From Candidatus Brocadiia bacterium (lineage in GTDB: Bacteria; Planctomycetota; Brocadiia; SM23-32), in assembly GCA_046538485.1 (NCBI GenBank), contig JBKHIT010000003.1:1-64000 (forward strand): a DNA stretch of 64,000 nucleotides, written 5' to 3'. The first letter of the stretch is position 1; each line of letters begins with the position of its first letter. The translations under genes were made by a program, and so were the position numbers. Of this stretch, positions 7,587 to 29,796 are shown piece by piece. The notes beneath the pieces were generated by a model that ran no database searches, was not told the DNA's origin, and was given only the letters and a program-made list of their open reading frames with translations.

Positions 7587-7654
7587 TTTTGATCACGGGG
7601 TTCGAATAACGTGCTTTAAAATGATACGCCCGTGTGGGTTTTGAGGAGGTTTCC

Positions 7655-9001
7655 ATGAGAATCGATCCCAGGTTGATTGCAGGTGGTGTGGTTGTAACAC
7701 TGGCGCTTGTCTGGTGTGGGTGTCAGAGCCCTCAGGAAGAGGCAGATGCGGAGAAAGCCGGTCCCAAAGCCTCGGCGGTTGAAGGCAAGAGTGTGGTTGA
7801 GAAGCCGGGGGCGGCTGCCAAAGAGGCTGAAGGAGGAAAGTCGGTTGCCCGGCCAGAGAAGGAAATTGAAGAGGGGAAAGTAACAAAGAAGGACAAGAGG
7901 AGCAAGAAAGCGAAAAAGGCCAAAAAGGCCAGGAAAGCCAAGAAGGGTACGGAGAAAGCTGCTGAGGTTGAGAAAGCAAAATTGGTTGTTGATCCCGGTC
8001 GAATGGATCTCGATCTGAGAGATCAGGGATTGAAAGTTATCTGGCGGCAGAACCTCGGACACGTTGGCCAGAAAACAAAGCTGGGCAACTTATACGCGTT
8101 GTCAGATACACTTGTTGCTGGGACGCCCGCAGGGAATTTGTTTTTCTTCGACGCTCGTAGCGGCGTTTGGAATGCTACTTCACGACTGAAGGGCGAATTG
8201 TGGGAAGACCCGGCCGGCGACAAGAAGGAAGTATATGTGATAACAGGGCGGGGACTTTCGGTAATTAATGCGGAATCGGGTGTTGTGCGAAAACGCTTTC
8301 GTCTGCGTATCCCCGTTTCGTGCCCCCCGGTGCCGGTTGGAAATGCCTTATTGCTGGGCGGTGCCAATTCTAAAATCACGAAACTTTCGCTGGAAAGTGG
8401 CAAACATCTGTGGAGCGTTTCCCCGGACGGTTCGGTTCAGGCATCACCGGTGGTCAATGATGAAATGTTTTATGGCACCGGGTATAGAGGGGCTGTAATT
8501 GCTGGAGACCTCTCGAACGGGAAGATTCGTTGGCGTTGGAAACCCAAAGAGCCTTCTCAGTTAATGGGTGGCCTGACGATGGGTGAAGGTTTCATTTATG
8601 TGGGCGATAACAGAGGGTACGTTTATTCTCTGCTCGGCTCAGATGGGGTTGCGATGTGGAAATACCCGCTGGGAACTCCCATAACTGATCTCAAATATGT
8701 AGATTCCGGGCATCTGGTGGTGGCCACTCATGAGTCGGGTATAACCCTTTTGTCTCCGGGAGATGAACCTTCTGAGAAGTGGATTTACAAAAGAGGGAAG
8801 AGGATGCTCGCAGCCGGGGAAAACGGGTATTATTTCCTGACACGGAACGGGGACCTGGCATGCGTTAACGTGGAGACAGGAAAAGAAAAATGGCGCTTGC
8901 CAATCGTCAAAGACTATATAATCGCAGTTTCTGGCAAAGAACCCATTATTTTTGTAGGCTGTGCGAGTGGCGAGATAATCGCTTTTCAGGAAATGGACTG
9001 A
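7655..9001 (+). CDS. PQQ-like beta-propeller lipoprotein (BamB-like) with a Lys/Ala-rich linker
   Basis: GAGGAGG RBS before ATG 7655; hydrophobic signal ending LVWCGC; repeated 'G...W' propeller blades (SGKHLWS, NGKIRWR, DGVAMWK, TGKEKWR). Confidence 0.75.
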   Translation: MRIDPRLIAGGVVVTLALVWCGCQSPQEEADAEKAGPKASAVEGKSVVEKPGAAAKEAEGGKSVARPEKEIEEGKVTKKDKRSKKAKKAKKARKAKKGTEKAAEVEKAKLVVDPGRMDLDLRDQGLKVIWRQNLGHVGQKTKLGNLYALSDTLVAGTPAGNLFFFDARSGVWNATSRLKGELWEDPAGDKKEVYVITGRGLSVINAESGVVRKRFRLRIPVSCPPVPVGNALLLGGANSKITKLSLESGKHLWSVSPDGSVQASPVVNDEMFYGTGYRGAVIAGDLSNGKIRWRWKPKEPSQLMGGLTMGEGFIYVGDNRGYVYSLLGSDGVAMWKYPLGTPITDLKYVDSGHLVVATHESGITLLSPGDEPSEKWIYKRGKRMLAAGENGYYFLTRNGDLACVNVETGKEKWRLPIVKDYIIAVSGKEPIIFVGCASGEIIAFQEMD

Positions 9002-9034
9002 CAGGCGCACGAACATCTCGAAAGAAGTACATAA

Positions 9035-9078
9035 AATGAGAGCCCTGACGGATTATTCATTCGCAGGGCTCTCTCATT
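9035..9078. terminator. Hairpin between convergent genes, probable bidirectional terminator
   Basis: GAGAGCCCTG / CAGGGCTCTC perfect 10-bp inverted repeat between the lipoprotein stop and the histone stop. Confidence 0.55.
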
Positions 9079-9210
9079 ACTTGACCCGCTGTTCATAAAG
9101 CGGGCAAAACGCAAAATACTCCTGCCACCTTCATCCCCGACTTTTTCATCTGCCGCAAGAGAACATGTAGAGATGATGCCGGAGAAAAAGCAGACAAGAC
9201 GCTTCCGCGT

Positions 9211-9390
9211 TTAAACGTCTCTTGCCTGTACGGTTTTACGACCATTGGCTTCCGCACGTTTAGCGGCTTTGTCGAGACATTCATAAACGTATTCGTTCAC
9301 TGCTTCAAGCACGTCCTTTGAGCACATCATACCTTTAGATTTGATGTAATCTTTTGTTTTCGAACCAACGATTAATCTTTCTTCAGCCAT
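9211..9390 (-). CDS. Bacterial histone-fold protein, 59 aa (face-to-face / Bd0055-HLp-like)
   Basis: Hand translation: MAEERLIVGSKTKDYIKSKGMMCSKDVLEAVNEYVYECLDKAAKRAEANGRKTVQARDV*. Histone signature A..RA...GRKTV..RD (RxTxxxxD), GGAGG RBS upstream. Absent from the ORF track, whose shortest entries are 60 aa. Confidence 0.9.
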   Translation of the reverse strand: MAEERLIVGSKTKDYIKSKGMMCSKDVLEAVNEYVYECLDKAAKRAEANGRKTVQARDV

Positions 9391-9449
9391 GGAAAACCTC
9401 CCTTTTCAGTAAAAAAAACAAGAAGCCGTTCCCTTGCGACAACGCACAA

Positions 9450-9477
9450 ATCTTAACATTTATGCCGTTTTTGTCAA
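9450..9477 (-). promoter_or_regulatory. Sigma70-type promoter of the histone gene
   Basis: Minus strand reads TTGACA (9477-9472), 16-nt spacer ending in TGn, TAAGAT (9455-9450), i.e. an extended -10. Confidence 0.6.
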
Positions 9478-9657
9478 GCATAAACATGGTTGAAATGCCA
9501 AGAAAACACCATAAAACGCCAAAATTGCCTTTTTGGGAGTGTGTTATTTCTGTTCTTGTGATGATAAAAGTTCGGGGGATCAGACGGCCTTTGCGATCGG
9601 GCCCTGATTCTGCTAAACTGCTTGTTGGTATCGTCTTCTGTCGACAGGGAAAGAAAA

Positions 9658-10653
9658 ATGGCGGATGATCATAAAGAATGGTCTCGTCGGAGATTTTTGA
9701 CTTACGCAGTGGGGGCGGCTACAGGCGCGGGAATATTTCGGTTTTTTGGTGAAAAAAAAGTGCCTTTCCATATCCGCAAAAGGGCGGAGAACGCATTACG
9801 TAGCGGTCTCGCTATTGTTCATGGTAACCACGGGGACCAAAAAACTGAAAGCCAGACCGTATCGCAGATGGCACGTGAGGCCATTCAGCAGCTTGGCGGA
9901 ATGGAGCGTCTCGTGAGGCCAGGGGCCCGAGTTGTGATTAAACCGAATATGGCCTGGCCGCGGCCGCCTCACATAGCGGCCAGCACCAACCCCTATGTTG
10001 TGAGGGCACTGGTGTCTATGTGTCTCGAGGCCGGGGCCGATCGGGTCCGCGTGCTTGACCACACCATAGCGCCCAATCCCGAACCGGCTTATCGTATCAG
10101 TGGCATTGCGGAGCAAGCGCGCGAGGCGGGTGCGCAAGTTGTGACAACGGATCCGGGGCGGTTCCGTGAGGTTGCGATCCCGGGAGGCTTTGAACTGCAT
10201 AAATGGTCTTTTTACGAAGAGTTTATCTCGCGCGAAATGTGTGATGTCCTGATCAACGTCCCGGTTCTGAAGGATCACGGAACCAGCCGTCTGACCATCG
10301 GGCTCAAAAATGCTTTCGGAATGGTCGGGGGAGAGCGAGGGCAACTACATAGCAGGATTCACAGAAAGATCCCCGATCTTCACAGAATTATAAAAGTTGA
10401 CCTTACTGTGATGGATGCTTATCGGGTTATACGACAGAACGGGCCGACTGGTGGGCGGGAGGCGGATGTTGATAATAGCCTGGAGGGTGCCAGACGCATT
10501 GTGGCGTCGGCTGATCCTGTGGCAGTTGACTCCTATGGGGCGAGCATGTTCGGTTTGAGCCCGGACGAAGTGGAGTTCGTGCGGAACGCGGAAAAAGCAG
10601 GACTTGGCGGAGCAGACTGGCATGGTGCAGGGGTGCGGGAGCGGACAATTTGA
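9658..10653 (+). CDS. DUF362 family Fe-S/lactate-racemase-like protein with a Tat signal
   Basis: SRRRFL twin-arginine motif; VVIKPN, TNP, INVPVLKDH, TIGLKNAFG, DPVAVD motifs of DUF362. Confidence 0.8.
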   Translation: MADDHKEWSRRRFLTYAVGAATGAGIFRFFGEKKVPFHIRKRAENALRSGLAIVHGNHGDQKTESQTVSQMAREAIQQLGGMERLVRPGARVVIKPNMAWPRPPHIAASTNPYVVRALVSMCLEAGADRVRVLDHTIAPNPEPAYRISGIAEQAREAGAQVVTTDPGRFREVAIPGGFELHKWSFYEEFISREMCDVLINVPVLKDHGTSRLTIGLKNAFGMVGGERGQLHSRIHRKIPDLHRIIKVDLTVMDAYRVIRQNGPTGGREADVDNSLEGARRIVASADPVAVDSYGASMFGLSPDEVEFVRNAEKAGLGGADWHGAGVRERTI

Positions 10654-13671: not shown

Positions 13672-13773
13672 TCTCTTCTTCAGAGAATGGGATATGAAAG
13701 CTATTGGTTAGTTTCTGATAGCCTTCAATTATGCTATTTTTGATACGAAGTTTTGTACGGAAGGAATTTAACA

Positions 13774-14322
13774 GTGGCCAAAAAGTGGTTTGTTCTCAGG
13801 GTGCAGAGCAACCGCGAAGAGTATGTGCGGGATAATCTCGCGCGGGCTGTCGCCCGAGAAGAGAAAGATGATGAGATCCCCAACATACTCGTACCAACTC
13901 AGACGGTTACGGAAATCCGGGGCGGCAAACGAAAACAAATCCAGCGCAAACTCTATCCCGGATATGTTCTGGTCGAAGTGGATGTTGACGACGAGGGTAA
14001 TATTCCGGATTCCCTCTGGTATCTGATCCGTGAGACGAGTGGCGTCGGTGACTTCATCGGTGGAGAAGAACCGTGGCCGATGCGAGAAGAGGAAGTTGCT
14101 CGGCTGCTCGGGGAGGAAGAAGAAGAGGAAGAAGAAGGTCCCGTTCTGGAGATCGATTTCAAAGAAGGCGATATGGTCGAGATAACGGAAGGTCCGTTCA
14201 ACGATATGAAAGGTCAGATTGAGGAGATCAATCCTGCTACCGGTCGTGTCAAAGTTGTTATCAGCGTTTTCAACCGCCAGACGCCTGTGGAGCTCGATTA
14301 CTGGCAGGTTGAATCGGCATAA
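13774..14322 (+). CDS. nusG: Transcription termination/antitermination factor NusG
   Basis: WFVLRV, YPGYVLV, KOW domain GPF...FNRQTPVELDY; GTG start after AAGGA. Confidence 0.97.
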   Translation: MAKKWFVLRVQSNREEYVRDNLARAVAREEKDDEIPNILVPTQTVTEIRGGKRKQIQRKLYPGYVLVEVDVDDEGNIPDSLWYLIRETSGVGDFIGGEEPWPMREEEVARLLGEEEEEEEEGPVLEIDFKEGDMVEITEGPFNDMKGQIEEINPATGRVKVVISVFNRQTPVELDYWQVESA

Positions 14323-14352
14323 TTCAGCACTAAATCCGTCAGGTGAAGATTC

Positions 14353-14844
14353 GTGGCAAAACAACCGAAAGTAACGTTAAAGCTACAGGTTACGGGGGGG
14401 CAGGCCAATCCTGCTCCGCCGCTCGGGCCCGCGTTGAGTCAGCATCGAGTCAATATCGGTCAGTTCATTAGCGAATTTAATGAGCAGACCAGCGACCAAA
14501 TGGGCATCCCGCTACCTGTAGTGGTGCGGATTTACGGCGATGGTTCGTTCGAATTTGATGTAAAAAAACCTCCGGTTTCCTATTTGATCAAGCGGACAGC
14601 CGAAGTTGCTAAAGGAGCGGGGGAAGCCGGAAAAGAAGTTGTTGGGAGTCTCACTGAAGAACAGGTGGAAGAAATTGCCCAGGAGAAAATGGAAGATCTG
14701 AATGCGAGGGATCTTGAGGCTGCGAAAAACATAGTTAAGGGGACTGCCCGTAGCTGTGGGATTGAGGTTATGGCTGAGGGAAAAGAACAAGAACAAGAGC
14801 AGGATAAAGAGGAAGAGGAAGAAGAGCTTGTTGAAACTGAATAG
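14353..14844 (+). CDS. rplK: 50S ribosomal protein L11 with an acidic C-terminal tail
   Basis: GGQANPAPPLGPAL, GTARSCGIEV. Confidence 0.97.
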   Translation: MAKQPKVTLKLQVTGGQANPAPPLGPALSQHRVNIGQFISEFNEQTSDQMGIPLPVVVRIYGDGSFEFDVKKPPVSYLIKRTAEVAKGAGEAGKEVVGSLTEEQVEEIAQEKMEDLNARDLEAAKNIVKGTARSCGIEVMAEGKEQEQEQDKEEEEEELVETE

Positions 14845-14878
14845 CTGTCAAGAGAGCCGTTTTACCCCGGATTGAATC

Positions 14879-15559
14879 ATGGCAAAAAGAAGTCGTCGTT
14901 ACCAGGAAGCTTGCGCCCAGATTGATAAGAGTGCCGTTTATCCCGTGGGCGAAGCGATTGATATTTTGAAGTCGATCCGGAGCGCCCAGTTCGACGAAAC
15001 GGTTGAGCTCCATGTTCAACTTGGGATCGACCCGCGCCAGAGCGACCAGCAAATTCGCACGTCTTTGTCCCTTCCCAATGGAACGGGGCGAAGTCTCAAA
15101 GTGGCGGTTTTTGCGGACGGTGATAATGCCGAGAAAGCCCTTGAGGCAGGAGCTGAGGAGGTGGGGTCTGACGAATTGATCGAACGAGTGGAAGATGGAT
15201 GGATGGACTTTGATGTGGCACTGGCCACCCCCAGTATGATGAGCAAAATCGGGCGCCTCGGTCGGTATCTTGGTCCGCAAGGGCTCATGCCGACTCCCAA
15301 GAACGGAACCGTAAGAGAAGATATCGGCGAGGCTGTTAAGGAATTTAAGGCCGGGAAAGTGGAGTTGCGCAACGACGAAGGTGCTAATATCCACACTCCG
15401 GTCGGAAAAATGTCTTTCAGCAAGGAAGAATTGATGGAAAACGTTCAAACGGTCCTTGAGCATCTACTGCAAAAACGGCCGACGGGATTGAAAGGACGTT
15501 TTTTCCGTAATGTGGTTTTGAGTTCAACGATGTCGCCTGGAATAAAAGTGCAGATATAA
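14879..15559 (+). CDS. rplA: 50S ribosomal protein L1
   Basis: FDETVE, LGPQGLMPTPKNGTV, STMSPG. Confidence 0.98.
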   Translation: MAKRSRRYQEACAQIDKSAVYPVGEAIDILKSIRSAQFDETVELHVQLGIDPRQSDQQIRTSLSLPNGTGRSLKVAVFADGDNAEKALEAGAEEVGSDELIERVEDGWMDFDVALATPSMMSKIGRLGRYLGPQGLMPTPKNGTVREDIGEAVKEFKAGKVELRNDEGANIHTPVGKMSFSKEELMENVQTVLEHLLQKRPTGLKGRFFRNVVLSSTMSPGIKVQI

Positions 15560-27927: not shown

Positions 27928-29796
27928 ATGTCCCGAGAAACTTTCCGAATTACGTTCCAACCCGAAGGTCAAAACGTTTTCGTGCTCCAGGGTACTACGC
28001 TTGTTGAGGCTGCCGGGCAGGCCGGAATTATTATCAACACTCCCTGCGGAGGTGAAGGCGCATGCGGAAAATGTAAGATCGAGGTCCGAGGTGACGCACC
28101 GCCGCCATCAGAAGCCGACAAACGGCATTTTAACGATGATGATCTGGGGAAAGGCATGCGTCTGGCATGCCAGTTGAACGTCGATCGGAATCTGGTCGTC
28201 AGTATCCCGGAGGAGACCAGGTTCTTTGAACAGGTTGTGTTGACAGAGGGGAAAGAACACGCTGTTGGTCTTCACCCCAAGGTGCGCAAGTGTTATCTGA
28301 AACTAGTGCCTCCAAGTCAGGATGACCTGCGAAGCGACGTAGATCGCGTCAAAGAAGCCGTGAGTGACACCGAAAATGTAAAGCTGGATATCGCTCTGAT
28401 CCAGACGATGCCGCAAACCCTCAGGAACGAAGAGTTCAGTGTAACGGCAGTTCTCGATGGAAACGAAATTGTTGCTCTGGAGAAGGGAGATACAACTAAT
28501 TCTCTATGGGGAGTTGCTTTCGATATCGGCACTACTACCATAGTGGGAACTCTGGTTGACCTCCAGAATGGCAAAAGAAAAGCAGTCGCCGGCCGCTCCA
28601 ACCCTCAGGTTCATTTCGGCGATGATGTTGTCAGCCGGATTAATTATGCCCGGGAGAATGAGGACGGGTTGCAAACGCTTCATACTCGTCTTGTGATATG
28701 TCTCAATGAAATAATTCAGGAACTTTGTAGTGAGAGCGGGATCCCGAGCACAGATATTTATGAGATTGCGGCAGTCGGGAATACGACGATGACCCACATC
28801 TTGCTCGAGATTGACCCGCGTTCCATCGGACAGGCTCCCTATGTTTCGGTTTTTCGCGAGGCTGTTGACGTTAAGGCCCGCCGTTTAAACATTGAAGTTA
28901 ACCGAAACGCGAACCTTCACGTTTTGCCGAATATCGCTGGATTTGTGGGCAGCGATACCGTGGCGATGGCCCTTGCTTCCCGTATAAATCACAGTGAAGA
29001 GACTCTACTGGCCATCGATATCGGAACGAATGGGGAAATTGTAATCGGCAATAAAGACCGTTGCATTGCGTGTTCAACCGCTGCGGGACCGGCTTTTGAA
29101 GGGGCGAGAATACACTTCGGAATGCGCGCCACCGAAGGAGCGATTAGCAAGGTTGTCGCCAATGAAGAAATTGAAGTAAGTGTTGTTGGTGGAGGACGTG
29201 CTCGGGGGATATGCGGCAGCGGACTTCTCGATGCTGTTGCCGAGTTGCTCAGAGTCGGTGTAATAGATAAAAGCGGCAGGATCCAGATGGCGGAAAAACT
29301 TCCCGAAACTGTCCCGGAGAAAATTGCTGGGGCTATTACGGATTTTGATGGCCAGCCGGCTTTTGAGCTTGTCAATGCAAAAGATAGTAAACTGGACCAG
29401 GCTATTGTTTTGACCCAGAAGGATGTTCGTGAACTTCAGCTCGCAAAGGGAGCAATATGGGCCGGCCTGCAGGTTCTGTCGGCTGAAATGGATGTGAAAC
29501 CCGAGGAAGTCGATCTGGTTCTGTTGGCCGGGGGATTCGGAAATTTCATGCGGCGATCAAACGCTAAAAGAGTTGGTTTATTGCCCGGCATGCCCACCAG
29601 TCAGATCGAATTTATCGGAAACGCCGCTGCCGTCGGTGCGCGGATTGCTCTGTGCTCTCAGGGATGTCGCGAGGAGGCCACTCTGATCAGCGAGCAGACC
29701 GAATACCTCGAACTTGCCAATCGCCCGGATTTTCAGATGCTTTTTGCCGAGGCTATGATGTTCCCCGAGGAAAAAAAGGATAATTCAGACCAATGA
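27928..29796 (+). CDS. 2Fe-2S/ASKHA-domain reductive activator of corrinoid proteins (RACo/RamA-like)
   Basis: N-terminal CGGEGACGKC...RLACQ 2Fe-2S motif; DIGTTT, GDDVVSRI, GFVGSD, DIGTNGE, AAGPAFEG, GICGSG, QLAKGAI, LAGGFG. Confidence 0.9.
   Translation: MSRETFRITFQPEGQNVFVLQGTTLVEAAGQAGIIINTPCGGEGACGKCKIEVRGDAPPPSEADKRHFNDDDLGKGMRLACQLNVDRNLVVSIPEETRFFEQVVLTEGKEHAVGLHPKVRKCYLKLVPPSQDDLRSDVDRVKEAVSDTENVKLDIALIQTMPQTLRNEEFSVTAVLDGNEIVALEKGDTTNSLWGVAFDIGTTTIVGTLVDLQNGKRKAVAGRSNPQVHFGDDVVSRINYARENEDGLQTLHTRLVICLNEIIQELCSESGIPSTDIYEIAAVGNTTMTHILLEIDPRSIGQAPYVSVFREAVDVKARRLNIEVNRNANLHVLPNIAGFVGSDTVAMALASRINHSEETLLAIDIGTNGEIVIGNKDRCIACSTAAGPAFEGARIHFGMRATEGAISKVVANEEIEVSVVGGGRARGICGSGLLDAVAELLRVGVIDKSGRIQMAEKLPETVPEKIAGAITDFDGQPAFELVNAKDSKLDQAIVLTQKDVRELQLAKGAIWAGLQVLSAEMDVKPEEVDLVLLAGGFGNFMRRSNAKRVGLLPGMPTSQIEFIGNAAAVGARIALCSQGCREEATLISEQTEYLELANRPDFQMLFAEAMMFPEEKKDNSDQ

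What the first reader, a model, noticed from the sequence alone, without database searches (positions are those of the whole stretch)
9211..9390. Unannotated bacterial histone gene (59 aa) in a planctomycete-like genome
Seen: minus-strand ORF MAEERLIVGSKTKDYIKSKGMMCSKDVLEAVNEYVYECLDKAAKRAEANGRKTVQARDV, too short for the ORF track. It has a short alpha1, a long alpha2 and the L2 motif R51-K-T53-V-x-x-x-D58, and it ends right after the Asp, so alpha3 is truncated. Established: RxTxxxxD is the histone-fold signature of archaeal HMf-type histones and of bacterial histones such as Bdellovibrio Bd0055/HBb and Leptospira HLp. From memory, the 'LIV.SK.K.YIKSKG' N-terminus and truncated alpha3 match the Leptospira/face-to-face class. 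Inference: this lineage uses histone-based chromatin, which matters because planctomycetes are known for condensed nucleoids with poorly defined organising proteins. Net charge is only about +2 (12 K/R vs 10 D/E), and two Cys (C23, C38) could allow redox control.
Basis: partly seen in the sequence, partly recalled or inferred. Interest (0 to 1): 0.9.

Follow-up and report, generated by a model that had tools for sequence, protein, structure and literature searches.

The report
Face-to-face bacterial histone, planctomycete
This 59-codon gene of an uncultured planctomycete really encodes a small bacterial histone of the Leptospira HLp ("face-to-face") type, a family already catalogued in this phylum, so it is a sound but ordinary find.

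Summary
The ORF at 9211..9390 (-) is real. It is a histone-fold protein with a truncated alpha3. Its best PDB sequence match is HLp of Leptospira perolatii (E 3.9e-12 alone, 2e-19 as a family profile), ahead of HBb and HTkC. An AlphaFold model (pLDDT 90.8) superposes on HLp at TM 0.87-0.93 and rmsd about 1 A. All five residues that define face-to-face (FtF) histones are present (R45, N49, R51, T53, D58), and the chain ends one residue after the Asp. The gene occurs in 22 of 24 same-family genomes and 132 of 301 sampled Planctomycetota genomes, and it evolves under purifying selection. No expression data were found. The genome also encodes HU. Histones of this type in Planctomycetota are already in print (PMC10627809, PMC11390915, PMC12701072), and this scan has reported them in at least 13 other genomes. 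Verdict: a well-supported new member of a known kind, of modest interest.

The parts
9211..9390 (-). Histone CDS, 59 aa plus TAA stop: alpha1 residues 9-17, L1 18-24, alpha2 25-48, L2 49-55, alpha3 56-58, C-terminus V59
   Evidence: sequence; AF2 model, pLDDT 90.8; HLp best PDB match; Foldseek TM 0.87-0.93 to HLp
9397..9402 (-). Shine-Dalgarno GGGAGG, 6 nt upstream of the ATG
   Evidence: A GGAGG-type site lies within 20 nt upstream of the start in all 24 of 24 unique Brocadiia-type orthologues (my reading of the upstream 20-mers printed).
9450..9477 (-). Sigma-70-like promoter TTGACA-16 nt-TAAGAT with a TG before the -10 hexamer (10 of 12 matches); implies a 5' UTR of about 50 nt
   Evidence: 3 promoter-like sites in the region against 1.1 expected from shuffles; a consensus match only, not shown to function
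9196..9221 (-). Terminator-like hairpin overlapping the stop codon (9 pairs, weak, 3 GC pairs) followed by a T-run
   Evidence: 1 found against 1.3 expected from shuffles, so weak on its own
9031..9073 (-). Perfect 10-bp GC-rich hairpin (9073-9064 pairs with 9047-9038) followed by AUUUUAU: the likely intrinsic terminator of the histone transcript, at the end of a strongly structured 3' region of about 170 nt
   Evidence: direct reading; folds (z -5.2, 0 of 200 shuffles as stable)

Best explanation
The gene encodes a minimal alpha3-truncated histone of the bacterial face-to-face (FtF) class, an orthologue-level relative of Leptospira HLp. By analogy with HLp, two chains form the head-to-tail histone-fold dimer through the antiparallel alpha2 helices. 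Two dimers then close into a torus-shaped tetramer. In that tetramer R45 reaches the C-terminal carboxylate of V59 and N49 bonds R51 of the opposite dimer. The R51-D58 clamp shapes loop L2. DNA is bound without sequence specificity through backbone contacts from the alpha1 N-terminus (G9-S10-K11), alpha1 lysines K13 and K17, loop L1 (C23, K25) and loop L2 (K52, T53). About 60 bp wrap around the tetramer. In the cell it would act as a nucleoid-associated protein beside HU. Shown here: the gene, its expression signals, the fold, the class-defining residues, conservation and purifying selection. Inferred: tetramer formation, DNA wrapping, abundance and a chromatin role.
For: Sequence: PDB phmmer best hit is HLp 9qt0 (E 3.9e-12, 48.6 bits, ungapped over residues 3-58), against HBb at 31.9 bits and HTkC at 30.3 bits. 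With the 21-sequence family profile the scores are HLp 72.6, HBb 54.5 and HTkC 48 bits; HBb needs a 1-residue and HTkC a 2-residue L1 insertion, HLp none. Fold: AF2 pLDDT 90.8; the 9 best Foldseek PDB hits are all HLp, HBb or HTkC chains at TM 0.84-0.93 and rmsd 0.9-1.3 A, while nucleosomal histones follow at E > 0.05. FtF signature: Schwab 2024 names R48, N52, R54, T56 and D61 (HMM numbering) as the strongest conserved FtF residues, with R salt-bridging the C-terminal carboxyl one residue after the Asp. Hu 2025 names R49, N53 and R55 as conserved in tetrameric bacterial FtF histones. Here these are R45, N49, R51, T53, D58 and C-terminal V59. They are invariant in 21 of 21 family members, and the pattern R...N.R.T....D.$ is found in 107 of the 150 best representatives. 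HBb has S and D in place of R45 and N49 and runs 5 residues past the Asp (alignment). DNA contacts: of the 9 HLp contact residues (A13, S14, K15, K17, K21, T27, G29, T56, T57), 5 are identical here (S10, K11, K13, K17, T53) and 2 are replaced by lysine (K25, K52). Gene reality: found in 22 of 24 same-family genomes, the 2 misses being 66% and 72% complete; 132 of 301 sampled Planctomycetota genomes; across 24 unique orthologous CDS the median dN/dS is 0.21 in the 206 of 276 pairs with unsaturated dS; strong SD and promoter-like site.
Against: Three of the six HLp interface residues differ here (S52->A48, T61->R57, F63->V59). The protein has RKT in L2, which Schwab 2024 describes as typical of bacterial dimers and nucleosomal histones rather than the FtF profile. 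Pfam PF00808 (19.2 bits against a cut-off of 21.4) and NCBIfam archaea_histone (20.8 against 50) are below their curated cut-offs. The codon adaptation index is unremarkable (63.5th percentile of long ORFs), so sequence alone does not show high expression. The genome has an HU gene, so the histone need not be the main nucleoid protein.
Confidence: 0.75

Rival explanations
1. It is a histone, but it works like the Bdellovibrio HBb 'bacterial dimer' class: a stable dimer that bends DNA rather than a tetramer that wraps it.
For: HBb is the second-best PDB match (E about 1e-6 alone, 8.7e-14 with the profile) and superposes equally well as a monomer (TM 0.84-0.91). RKT in L2 and lysines at alpha1 positions 11, 13 and 17 match Schwab's description of bacterial dimers. 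Both classes occur in Planctomycetota. No oligomer test could be run.
Against: Schwab 2024 states that bacterial dimers lack R48 and N52. Here the equivalents R45 and N49 are invariant in 21 of 21 relatives. HBb scores 17-18 bits lower than HLp, needs an L1 insertion, and continues 5 residues beyond the clamp Asp, whereas this protein ends exactly where HLp does. In one search the HBb-like representatives (ending ...DGRKTVMxRDx plus extra residues) are clearly distinct from the query's pattern.
Confidence: 0.15
2. It is an FtF-fold protein with a specialised rather than global role, for example a condition-dependent or redox-responsive DNA binder, with HU doing the bulk nucleoid work.
For: HU is encoded in the genome (87.8 bits). 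CAI is average. In archaea with other chromatin proteins the FtF histone can be a minor, condition-dependent component (T. kodakarensis and T. onnurineus). C23 sits at the position of HLp T27, a DNA-backbone contact. C38 sits at HLp L42 in the dimer core.
Against: The gene is kept as a single copy in 22 of 24 same-family genomes with strong SD sites, as expected of a housekeeping gene. The Cys residues are confined to the query's subclade: 9 of 21 sequences in A1 have both C23 and C38, and the rest have S/T at 23 and M, L, I or A at 38. No expression data exist either way.
Confidence: 0.1
3. It is a chance ORF or a non-coding region that happens to be open.
For: It is only 59 codons long, and both Pfam and NCBIfam hits are below their cut-offs.
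Against: Orthologues occur in 31 of 41 related genomes. Non-synonymous divergence is 0.17-0.27 while synonymous sites are saturated. The fold model is confident, PDB matches reach E 2e-19, and there is no Rfam match on either strand.
Confidence: 0.01

Closest known systems
HLp, face-to-face histone of Leptospira perolatii (PDB 9QT0/9QT1/9QT2; Hu et al. 2025, PMC12701072), and its essential, abundant L. interrogans orthologue (Hocher et al. 2023, PMC10627809)
   Same: 50% identity (Foldseek alignment) and an ungapped alignment over 56 residues. Same L1 length and same C-terminal end point. The R49/N53/R55 tetramer triad and the R55-D62 clamp are conserved as R45/N49/R51 and R51-D58. The alpha1 motif SK.K..IKSKG is shared, as is the net charge of +2 over the aligned part.
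   Different: No N-terminal tail (HLp has about 7 disordered residues). L2 reads RKT instead of RTT. Interface residues A48, R57 and V59 replace S52, T61 and F63. There are two cysteines (C23, C38). The genome encodes HU, whereas Leptospira is reported to lack HU and Dps. The gene neighbours differ: here a convergent BamB-like gene and a divergent DUF362 gene, not SMC/MAP.
HBb / Bd0055, bacterial dimer histone of Bdellovibrio bacteriovorus (PDB 8CMP, 8FVX, 9EZZ, 9F0E)
   Same: Alpha3-truncated histone fold (TM 0.84-0.91), RKTV in L2, the RD clamp and the S-K motif at the start of alpha1. It co-exists with HU in its genome.
   Different: HBb has S and D where this protein has R45 and N49. It has one extra L1 residue and 5 residues after the clamp Asp. 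It is a strict dimer that bends DNA (PMC11317129 abstract; PMC12701072 discussion).
HTkC of Thermococcus kodakarensis (PDB 9F2C) and archaeal FtF histones
   Same: Same fold (TM 0.85-0.89), same length (59 aa) and same C-terminal end point; R45 equivalent conserved. Archaeal (mostly DPANN) homologues reach 40-57% identity and share RAxANGRKTVQ.
   Different: HTkC has a 2-residue longer L1 and E in place of N49. Many archaeal relatives are tandem doublets of 115-119 aa. In the tree of 52 singlets the 24 Brocadiia-type sequences form their own clade (support 100/98).

Membership tests
alpha3-truncated histones (Schwab et al. 2024) | Histone fold alpha1-L1-alpha2-L2-alpha3 | tested here: met
   AF2 model with pLDDT 90.8 and helices at 9-17, 25-48 and 56-58. 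Foldseek top 9 hits are HLp/HBb/HTkC chains at TM 0.84-0.93, then eukaryotic and archaeal histones.
alpha3-truncated histones (Schwab et al. 2024) | Alpha3 of only 3-4 residues and an alpha2 shorter than in nucleosomal histones | tested here: met
   Alpha3 is residues 56-58 and the chain ends at 59. Alpha2 is 24 residues and aligns without gaps to HLp, whose alpha2 is one turn shorter than that of HMfB.
alpha3-truncated histones (Schwab et al. 2024) | RxTxxxxD motif / RD clamp in L2 | tested here: met
   R51, T53 and D58 are present and invariant in 21 of 21 relatives.
Face-to-face (FtF) histones | Conserved R48, N52, R54, T56, D61 (FtF HMM numbering); R and N make the dimer-dimer contacts | tested here: met
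   R45, N49, R51, T53 and D58 have the same spacing (i, +4, +6, +8, +13) as R41, N45, R47, T49, D54 of D4GZE0. They are invariant in A1.
Face-to-face (FtF) histones | C-terminus one residue after the clamp Asp, so that the terminal carboxylate can pair with the conserved Arg of the opposite dimer | tested here: met
   The chain ends D58-V59. All 24 unique Brocadiia-type orthologues also end D-x (alignment). 107 of 150 best representatives carry the full signature at their C-terminus.
Face-to-face (FtF) histones | Torus-shaped homotetramer (the feature by which the class was defined) | not testable with these tools
This needs AlphaFold-Multimer/AF3 or SEC-MALS.
Face-to-face (FtF) histones | Sequence nearest to bacterial FtF members rather than to other histone clusters | tested here: met
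   HLp ranks first with the single sequence (48.6 against 31.9 and 30.3 bits) and with the profile (72.6 against 54.5 and 48 bits). No CLANS map was made.
Bacterial dimer histones (HBb type) | Lack of the FtF dimer-dimer residues R48 and N52 | tested here: not met
   R45 and N49 are present and invariant. HBb has S and D at these columns.
Pfam PF00808 CBFD_NFYB_HMF / NCBIfam NF043032 archaea_histone | Score at or above the curated cut-off | tested here: not met
   19.2 bits against 21.4 and 20.8 against 50. These models cover only residues 28-59, which is expected for a truncated, divergent histone.
Principal chromatin protein (as in L. interrogans) | Very high abundance, nucleoid enrichment, essentiality, absence of other NAPs | not testable with these tools
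   No RNA run was listed. One HU gene is present in the genome at 87.8 bits, so the 'no other NAP' condition is not met.

The most novel reading that the evidence does not exclude
In this subclade the histone is redox-switchable. [quoted passage not shown] C38 occupies the alpha2 core position of HLp L42, near the middle of the alpha2 helices that cross in the dimer. Oxidation could therefore weaken DNA binding or cross-link the dimer, coupling nucleoid compaction to redox state in an anaerobic sediment planctomycete. Cys is the commonest residue at position 23 among FtF-signature domains (36 of 128), which hints that this could be a wider, undescribed property of FtF histones.
Probability: 0.07. 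Interest if true: 0.6.

Novelty: new member of a known kind. Interest (0 to 1): 0.25.

Why it matters
Bacterial histones were recognised only recently. Two have been characterised (HBb, HLp), and none of them comes from Planctomycetota, a phylum long noted for condensed nucleoids and once reported to lack histone homologues (PMC3440768 passages). This gene is a clean, minimal, tail-less FtF example. It is kept in 22 of 24 genomes of one Brocadiia-class family and has homologues in 132 of 301 sampled Planctomycetota genomes, so it could serve as a construct for testing whether planctomycete FtF histones wrap DNA as HLp does. It does not change the picture: published surveys already list FtF histones in this phylum.

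Tried and rejected
Complex prediction with 4 copies was not available, so nothing was folded and the dimer-versus-tetramer question rests on residues only.

The look-up of sequencing runs, kind rna: no RNA holder was listed.

Codon adaptation index against tuf, rplJ, rplL, rpsG and fusA: the histone scores 0.764, at the 63.5th percentile of 2,384 long ORFs, and 45% of random 58-codon windows score as high. This is uninformative about expression.

Supplement search of PMC11390915 for 'Brocadi', 'Planctomycetota' and a 9-residue motif: 0 occurrences in the one readable zip. The PDF supplements (Supplementary Figs 6, 8, 9, 13-15) could not be read, so I could not check how that paper classifies the Brocadiia sequences.

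Rfam scan of 8900-9800: no match.

Tree of 52 singlet homologues: the Brocadiia-type sequences form one clade (support 100/98), sister to Scalindua with weak support (85/64). The set was gathered with the pattern NGRKTVQ and contains no Leptospira or Bdellovibrio sequences, and doublets and proteins over 70 aa were left out. No statement on horizontal transfer is made.

Search for a second histone in the genome: only a 14-bit chance-level hit with the protein query, and PF00808 hit only this gene.

Full report
**1. The observation**

The window holds, on the minus strand, an ATG at 9390 and a TAA at 9213-9211.

Expression signals:
- GGGAGG lies at 9402-9397, 6 nt before the start codon.
- The consensus scan finds a promoter-like site TTGACA-16-TAAGAT with a TG extension at 9477..9450 on the same strand. 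It matches 10 of 12 positions, and the region has 3 such sites against 1.1 expected from shuffles.
- Downstream there is a weak terminator-like hairpin over the stop codon.
- At 9073-9031 there is a perfect 10-bp GC-rich hairpin followed by AUUUUAU, inside a 3' region that folds far better than shuffles (z -5.2, 0 of 200).
- No Rfam family matches either strand of 8900-9800.

**2. It is a real gene**

- The word-indexed search found 20 homologues of 60-67 aa at 59-80% identity. JGI names 6 of them 'histone H3/H4'.
- In whole-genome searches the gene is present in 22 of 24 genomes of the same family. The two misses are 66% and 72% complete. It is present in 8 of 16 genomes from other families of the same order or class.
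- With the family profile it is found in 132 of 301 sampled genomes of the phylum, and in 89 of 190 high-quality ones. The distribution is patchy by family: 10 of 10 in some families and 0 of 15 in others.
- I extracted 24 unique orthologous coding sequences from 34 loci. Against the window gene, non-synonymous divergence is 0.17-0.27, and synonymous sites are saturated in 21 of 23 comparisons. Among the 206 of 276 pairs with 0.05 < dS < 2, the median dN/dS is 0.21 and the maximum 0.48.
- All 24 orthologues have a GGAGG-type site within 20 nt upstream of the start.
- The exhaustive phmmer search of 1.84 billion representatives gives 418 clusters at E <= 0.001 and 17 at E <= 1e-10.

**3. The organism**

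Records holding the closest orthologues are titled Candidatus Brocadiaceae, Candidatus Brocadiia or Planctomycetota MAGs, including SM23_32. Scalindua homologues are 45-48% identical.

The window's genome is 5.19 Mb in 143 contigs and 88% complete. It gave no match to the hydrazine synthase alpha family PF18582. It therefore looks like a non-anammox member of the class, with the caveat that the genome is incomplete.

**4. What the protein is**

Curated family models only graze it:
- PF00808: 19.2 bits against a cut-off of 21.4.
- DUF1931: 17.6 bits.
- NCBIfam archaea_histone: 20.8 bits against a cut-off of 50.

Against PDB sequences the picture is clear:

| PDB protein | Single sequence | Family profile | Alignment |
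|---|---|---|---|
| HLp, Leptospira perolatii (9QT0) | E 3.9e-12, 48.6 bits | E 2e-19, 72.6 bits | ungapped over residues 3-58 |
| HBb, Bdellovibrio (8FVX/8CMP) | E about 1e-6, 31.9 bits | 54.5 bits | needs a 1-residue L1 insertion |
| HTkC, Thermococcus (9F2C) | E 3e-6, 30.3 bits | 48 bits | needs a 2-residue L1 insertion |

An AF2 model built on the 21-sequence alignment has pLDDT 90.8 and helices at 9-17, 25-48 and 56-58. Foldseek places it on HLp (TM 0.87-0.93, rmsd 1.0-1.1 A, 50% identity), then on HBb and HTkC (TM 0.84-0.91). Nucleosomal, archaeal HMf and TAF/NF-Y histone folds follow only at E > 0.05. It is therefore an alpha3-truncated histone in the sense of Schwab et al. 2024.

**5. 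Which class: face-to-face tetramer or bacterial dimer?**

Both classes are reported in Planctomycetota. Three lines of sequence evidence point to FtF.

*The defining residues.* Schwab et al. give the strongest conserved FtF residues as R48, N52, R54, T56 and D61 (HMM numbering), equal to R41, N45, R47, T49 and D54 of D4GZE0. In their description N bonds R of the opposite dimer, and R48 salt-bridges the carboxyl group of the last residue, one position after the Asp. Hu et al. 2025 find the same in the HLp crystal: R49, S52 and N53 face F63, T61 and R55, with R49, N53 and R55 conserved among tetrameric bacterial FtF histones. HLp numbering equals this protein's numbering plus 4. The equivalents here are R45, N49, R51, T53 and D58, and the chain ends at V59. 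All of these are invariant in 21 of 21 relatives.

*Contrast with the dimer class.* Bacterial dimers are said to lack R48 and N52. HBb indeed shows S and D in these columns and runs 5 residues past the Asp.

*The pattern across relatives.* Among the 150 best representatives, 107 carry R...N.R.T....D.$ at their C-terminus. The HBb-like ones (…DGRKTVMxRD plus a tail) and a third group (…NGRKTVRxHDFxx) stand apart.

Points against FtF:
- Three of the six HLp interface residues differ here (A48, R57, V59).
- L2 reads RKT, which Schwab et al. associate more with dimers and nucleosomal histones.

I put the FtF tetramer reading at about 0.75 and the dimer reading at about 0.15.

**6. How it most likely works**

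This section is inferred from HLp.
- *Dimer.* A head-to-tail dimer forms through the antiparallel alpha2 helices. HLp's core residues L35, L39, L42 and L47 correspond to V31, V35, C38 and A43 here.
- *Tetramer.* Two dimers close into a rigid torus.
- *DNA binding.* A band of basic and polar residues contacts the DNA backbone. Of the 9 HLp contact residues, 5 are identical here (S10, K11, K13, K17, T53) and 2 are replaced by lysine (K25, K52). C23 replaces T27 and G9 replaces A13.
- *Expected footprint.* HLp wraps about 60 bp and protects 35-72 bp from MNase, and the same is the expectation here.

**7. Role in the cell**

- Unlike Leptospira, which is reported to lack HU and Dps, this genome has one HU gene (PF00216, 87.8 bits). 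It has no second histone. The situation resembles Bdellovibrio, which has both a histone and HU.
- No RNA run was listed.
- The codon adaptation index is uninformative (63.5th percentile).
- The gene's GC3 is 0.37 against a genome median of 0.60. Only 0.42% of random 59-codon windows are as low. rplL (0.44) and fusA (0.50) deviate in the same direction. This is compatible with, but does not show, high expression.
- 'Histone-based chromatin in this lineage' therefore remains a reasonable but untested inference.

**8. Surroundings**

- The gene is monocistronic.
- Upstream and divergent from it is a DUF362 gene (9622-10653).
- Downstream and convergent with it is a BamB-like PQQ beta-propeller gene (7634-9001).
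- About 1.3 kb further on begin five tRNA genes, then tuf, secE, rplJ, rplL, rpoB, rpoC, rpsG and fusA.
- The convergent pairing with the BamB-like gene is kept in 32 of 33 Brocadiia-type loci, although that protein has diverged to 26-41% identity. The one exception is a contig that ends.
- The SMC/MAP neighbourhood of Leptospira hlp is not seen here.

**9. Comparison with what is known, and novelty**

- Hocher et al. [quoted passage not shown]
- Schwab et al. 2024 list Planctomycetota among the main bacterial phyla with FtF and with dimer histones (passages and section 7).
- Hu et al. 2025 repeat this and characterise HLp (sections 6, 7, 9 and 13).
- An older paper had stated that no histone homologue was detectable in planctomycete genomes (PMC3440768 passages). 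That view is now superseded.
- This scan's own notes list at least 13 earlier findings of FtF histones in other Planctomycetota genomes, all judged to be known-kind members.

The present gene is thus a new member of a known kind. Its only mildly unusual features are the two cysteines at a DNA-contact position and a dimer-core position, the low GC3, the structured 3' region and the conserved convergent neighbour.

**10. Verdict**

Interest is 0.25.

Noticed in passing
window 7634-9001 (+) and loci L003-L035: A BamB-like PQQ beta-propeller gene (PF13360) lies tail-to-tail with the histone gene in 32 of 33 Brocadiia-type loci, although it has diverged to 26-41% identity. The window copy carries a Lys-rich low-complexity stretch after its N-terminal hydrophobic segment (translation). 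The reason for the conserved convergent pairing is unknown.
   Followed up: partly
window 9214-9390 (-): The histone CDS has GC 0.42 and GC3 0.37 in a genome of GC 0.54 and median GC3 0.60. Only 0.42% of random 59-codon windows from long ORFs are as low. GC-rich relatives do not show this (their GC3 is 0.72-0.93). An earlier scan note on another planctomycete histone also mentioned an AT-rich cassette.
   Followed up: partly
window 9020-9225 (-): The 3' region of the histone gene is unusually structured (MFE -80.5 against -56.9 kcal/mol for shuffles, z -5.2). It holds a long imperfect hairpin of about 100 nt, a second small hairpin and a terminator hairpin. The whole putative transcript has z -4.75.
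   Followed up: partly
proteins P0001-P0171: Among 128 FtF-signature domains, Cys is the commonest residue at L1 position 23 (36 of 128; the position of HLp T27, a DNA-backbone contact). Cys is also recurrent at positions 21 (19 of 128) and 38 (14 of 128). Several close relatives carry C34 and C38 (CxxxC) on alpha2.
   Followed up: partly
loci L036, L041, L043, L044, L046, L058, L060, L061, L067, L071, L073, L078, L083: Many archaeal (DPANN, Methanosarcinales-labelled) homologues are tandem doublets of two FtF-type histone folds, 115-119 aa long, and each half ends in NGRKT..x.D.. In the exhaustive search many of the best hits also have 2 matched stretches.
   Followed up: no
loci L050, L081: Two singlets from records labelled Woesearchaeota group with the planctomycete (Scalindua plus Brocadiia-type) histones rather than with the other 23 archaeal singlets (branch support 95/99). 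They have the bacterial-type 'VVASKVK' N-terminus. This could reflect transfer or mis-binning.
   Followed up: no
proteins listed: A third C-terminal variant...NGRKTVRxHDF followed by 2-3 more residues, keeps the R...N pair but does not end one residue after the Asp. Its class is unclear to me.
   Followed up: no
window 27928-29796 (+): A RACo-type reductive activator gene (2Fe-2S domain plus RACo linker, middle and C-terminal domains) sits directly after fusA. This suggests corrinoid-dependent (Wood-Ljungdahl-type) metabolism. No hydrazine synthase alpha was found in the 88%-complete genome.
   Followed up: no
window 13768-15463: Between secE and rplJ my longest-ORF picker chose three minus-strand ORFs with no Pfam match. 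nusG, rplK and rplA would be expected there on the plus strand, so these are probably antisense artefacts of the picker.
   Followed up: no
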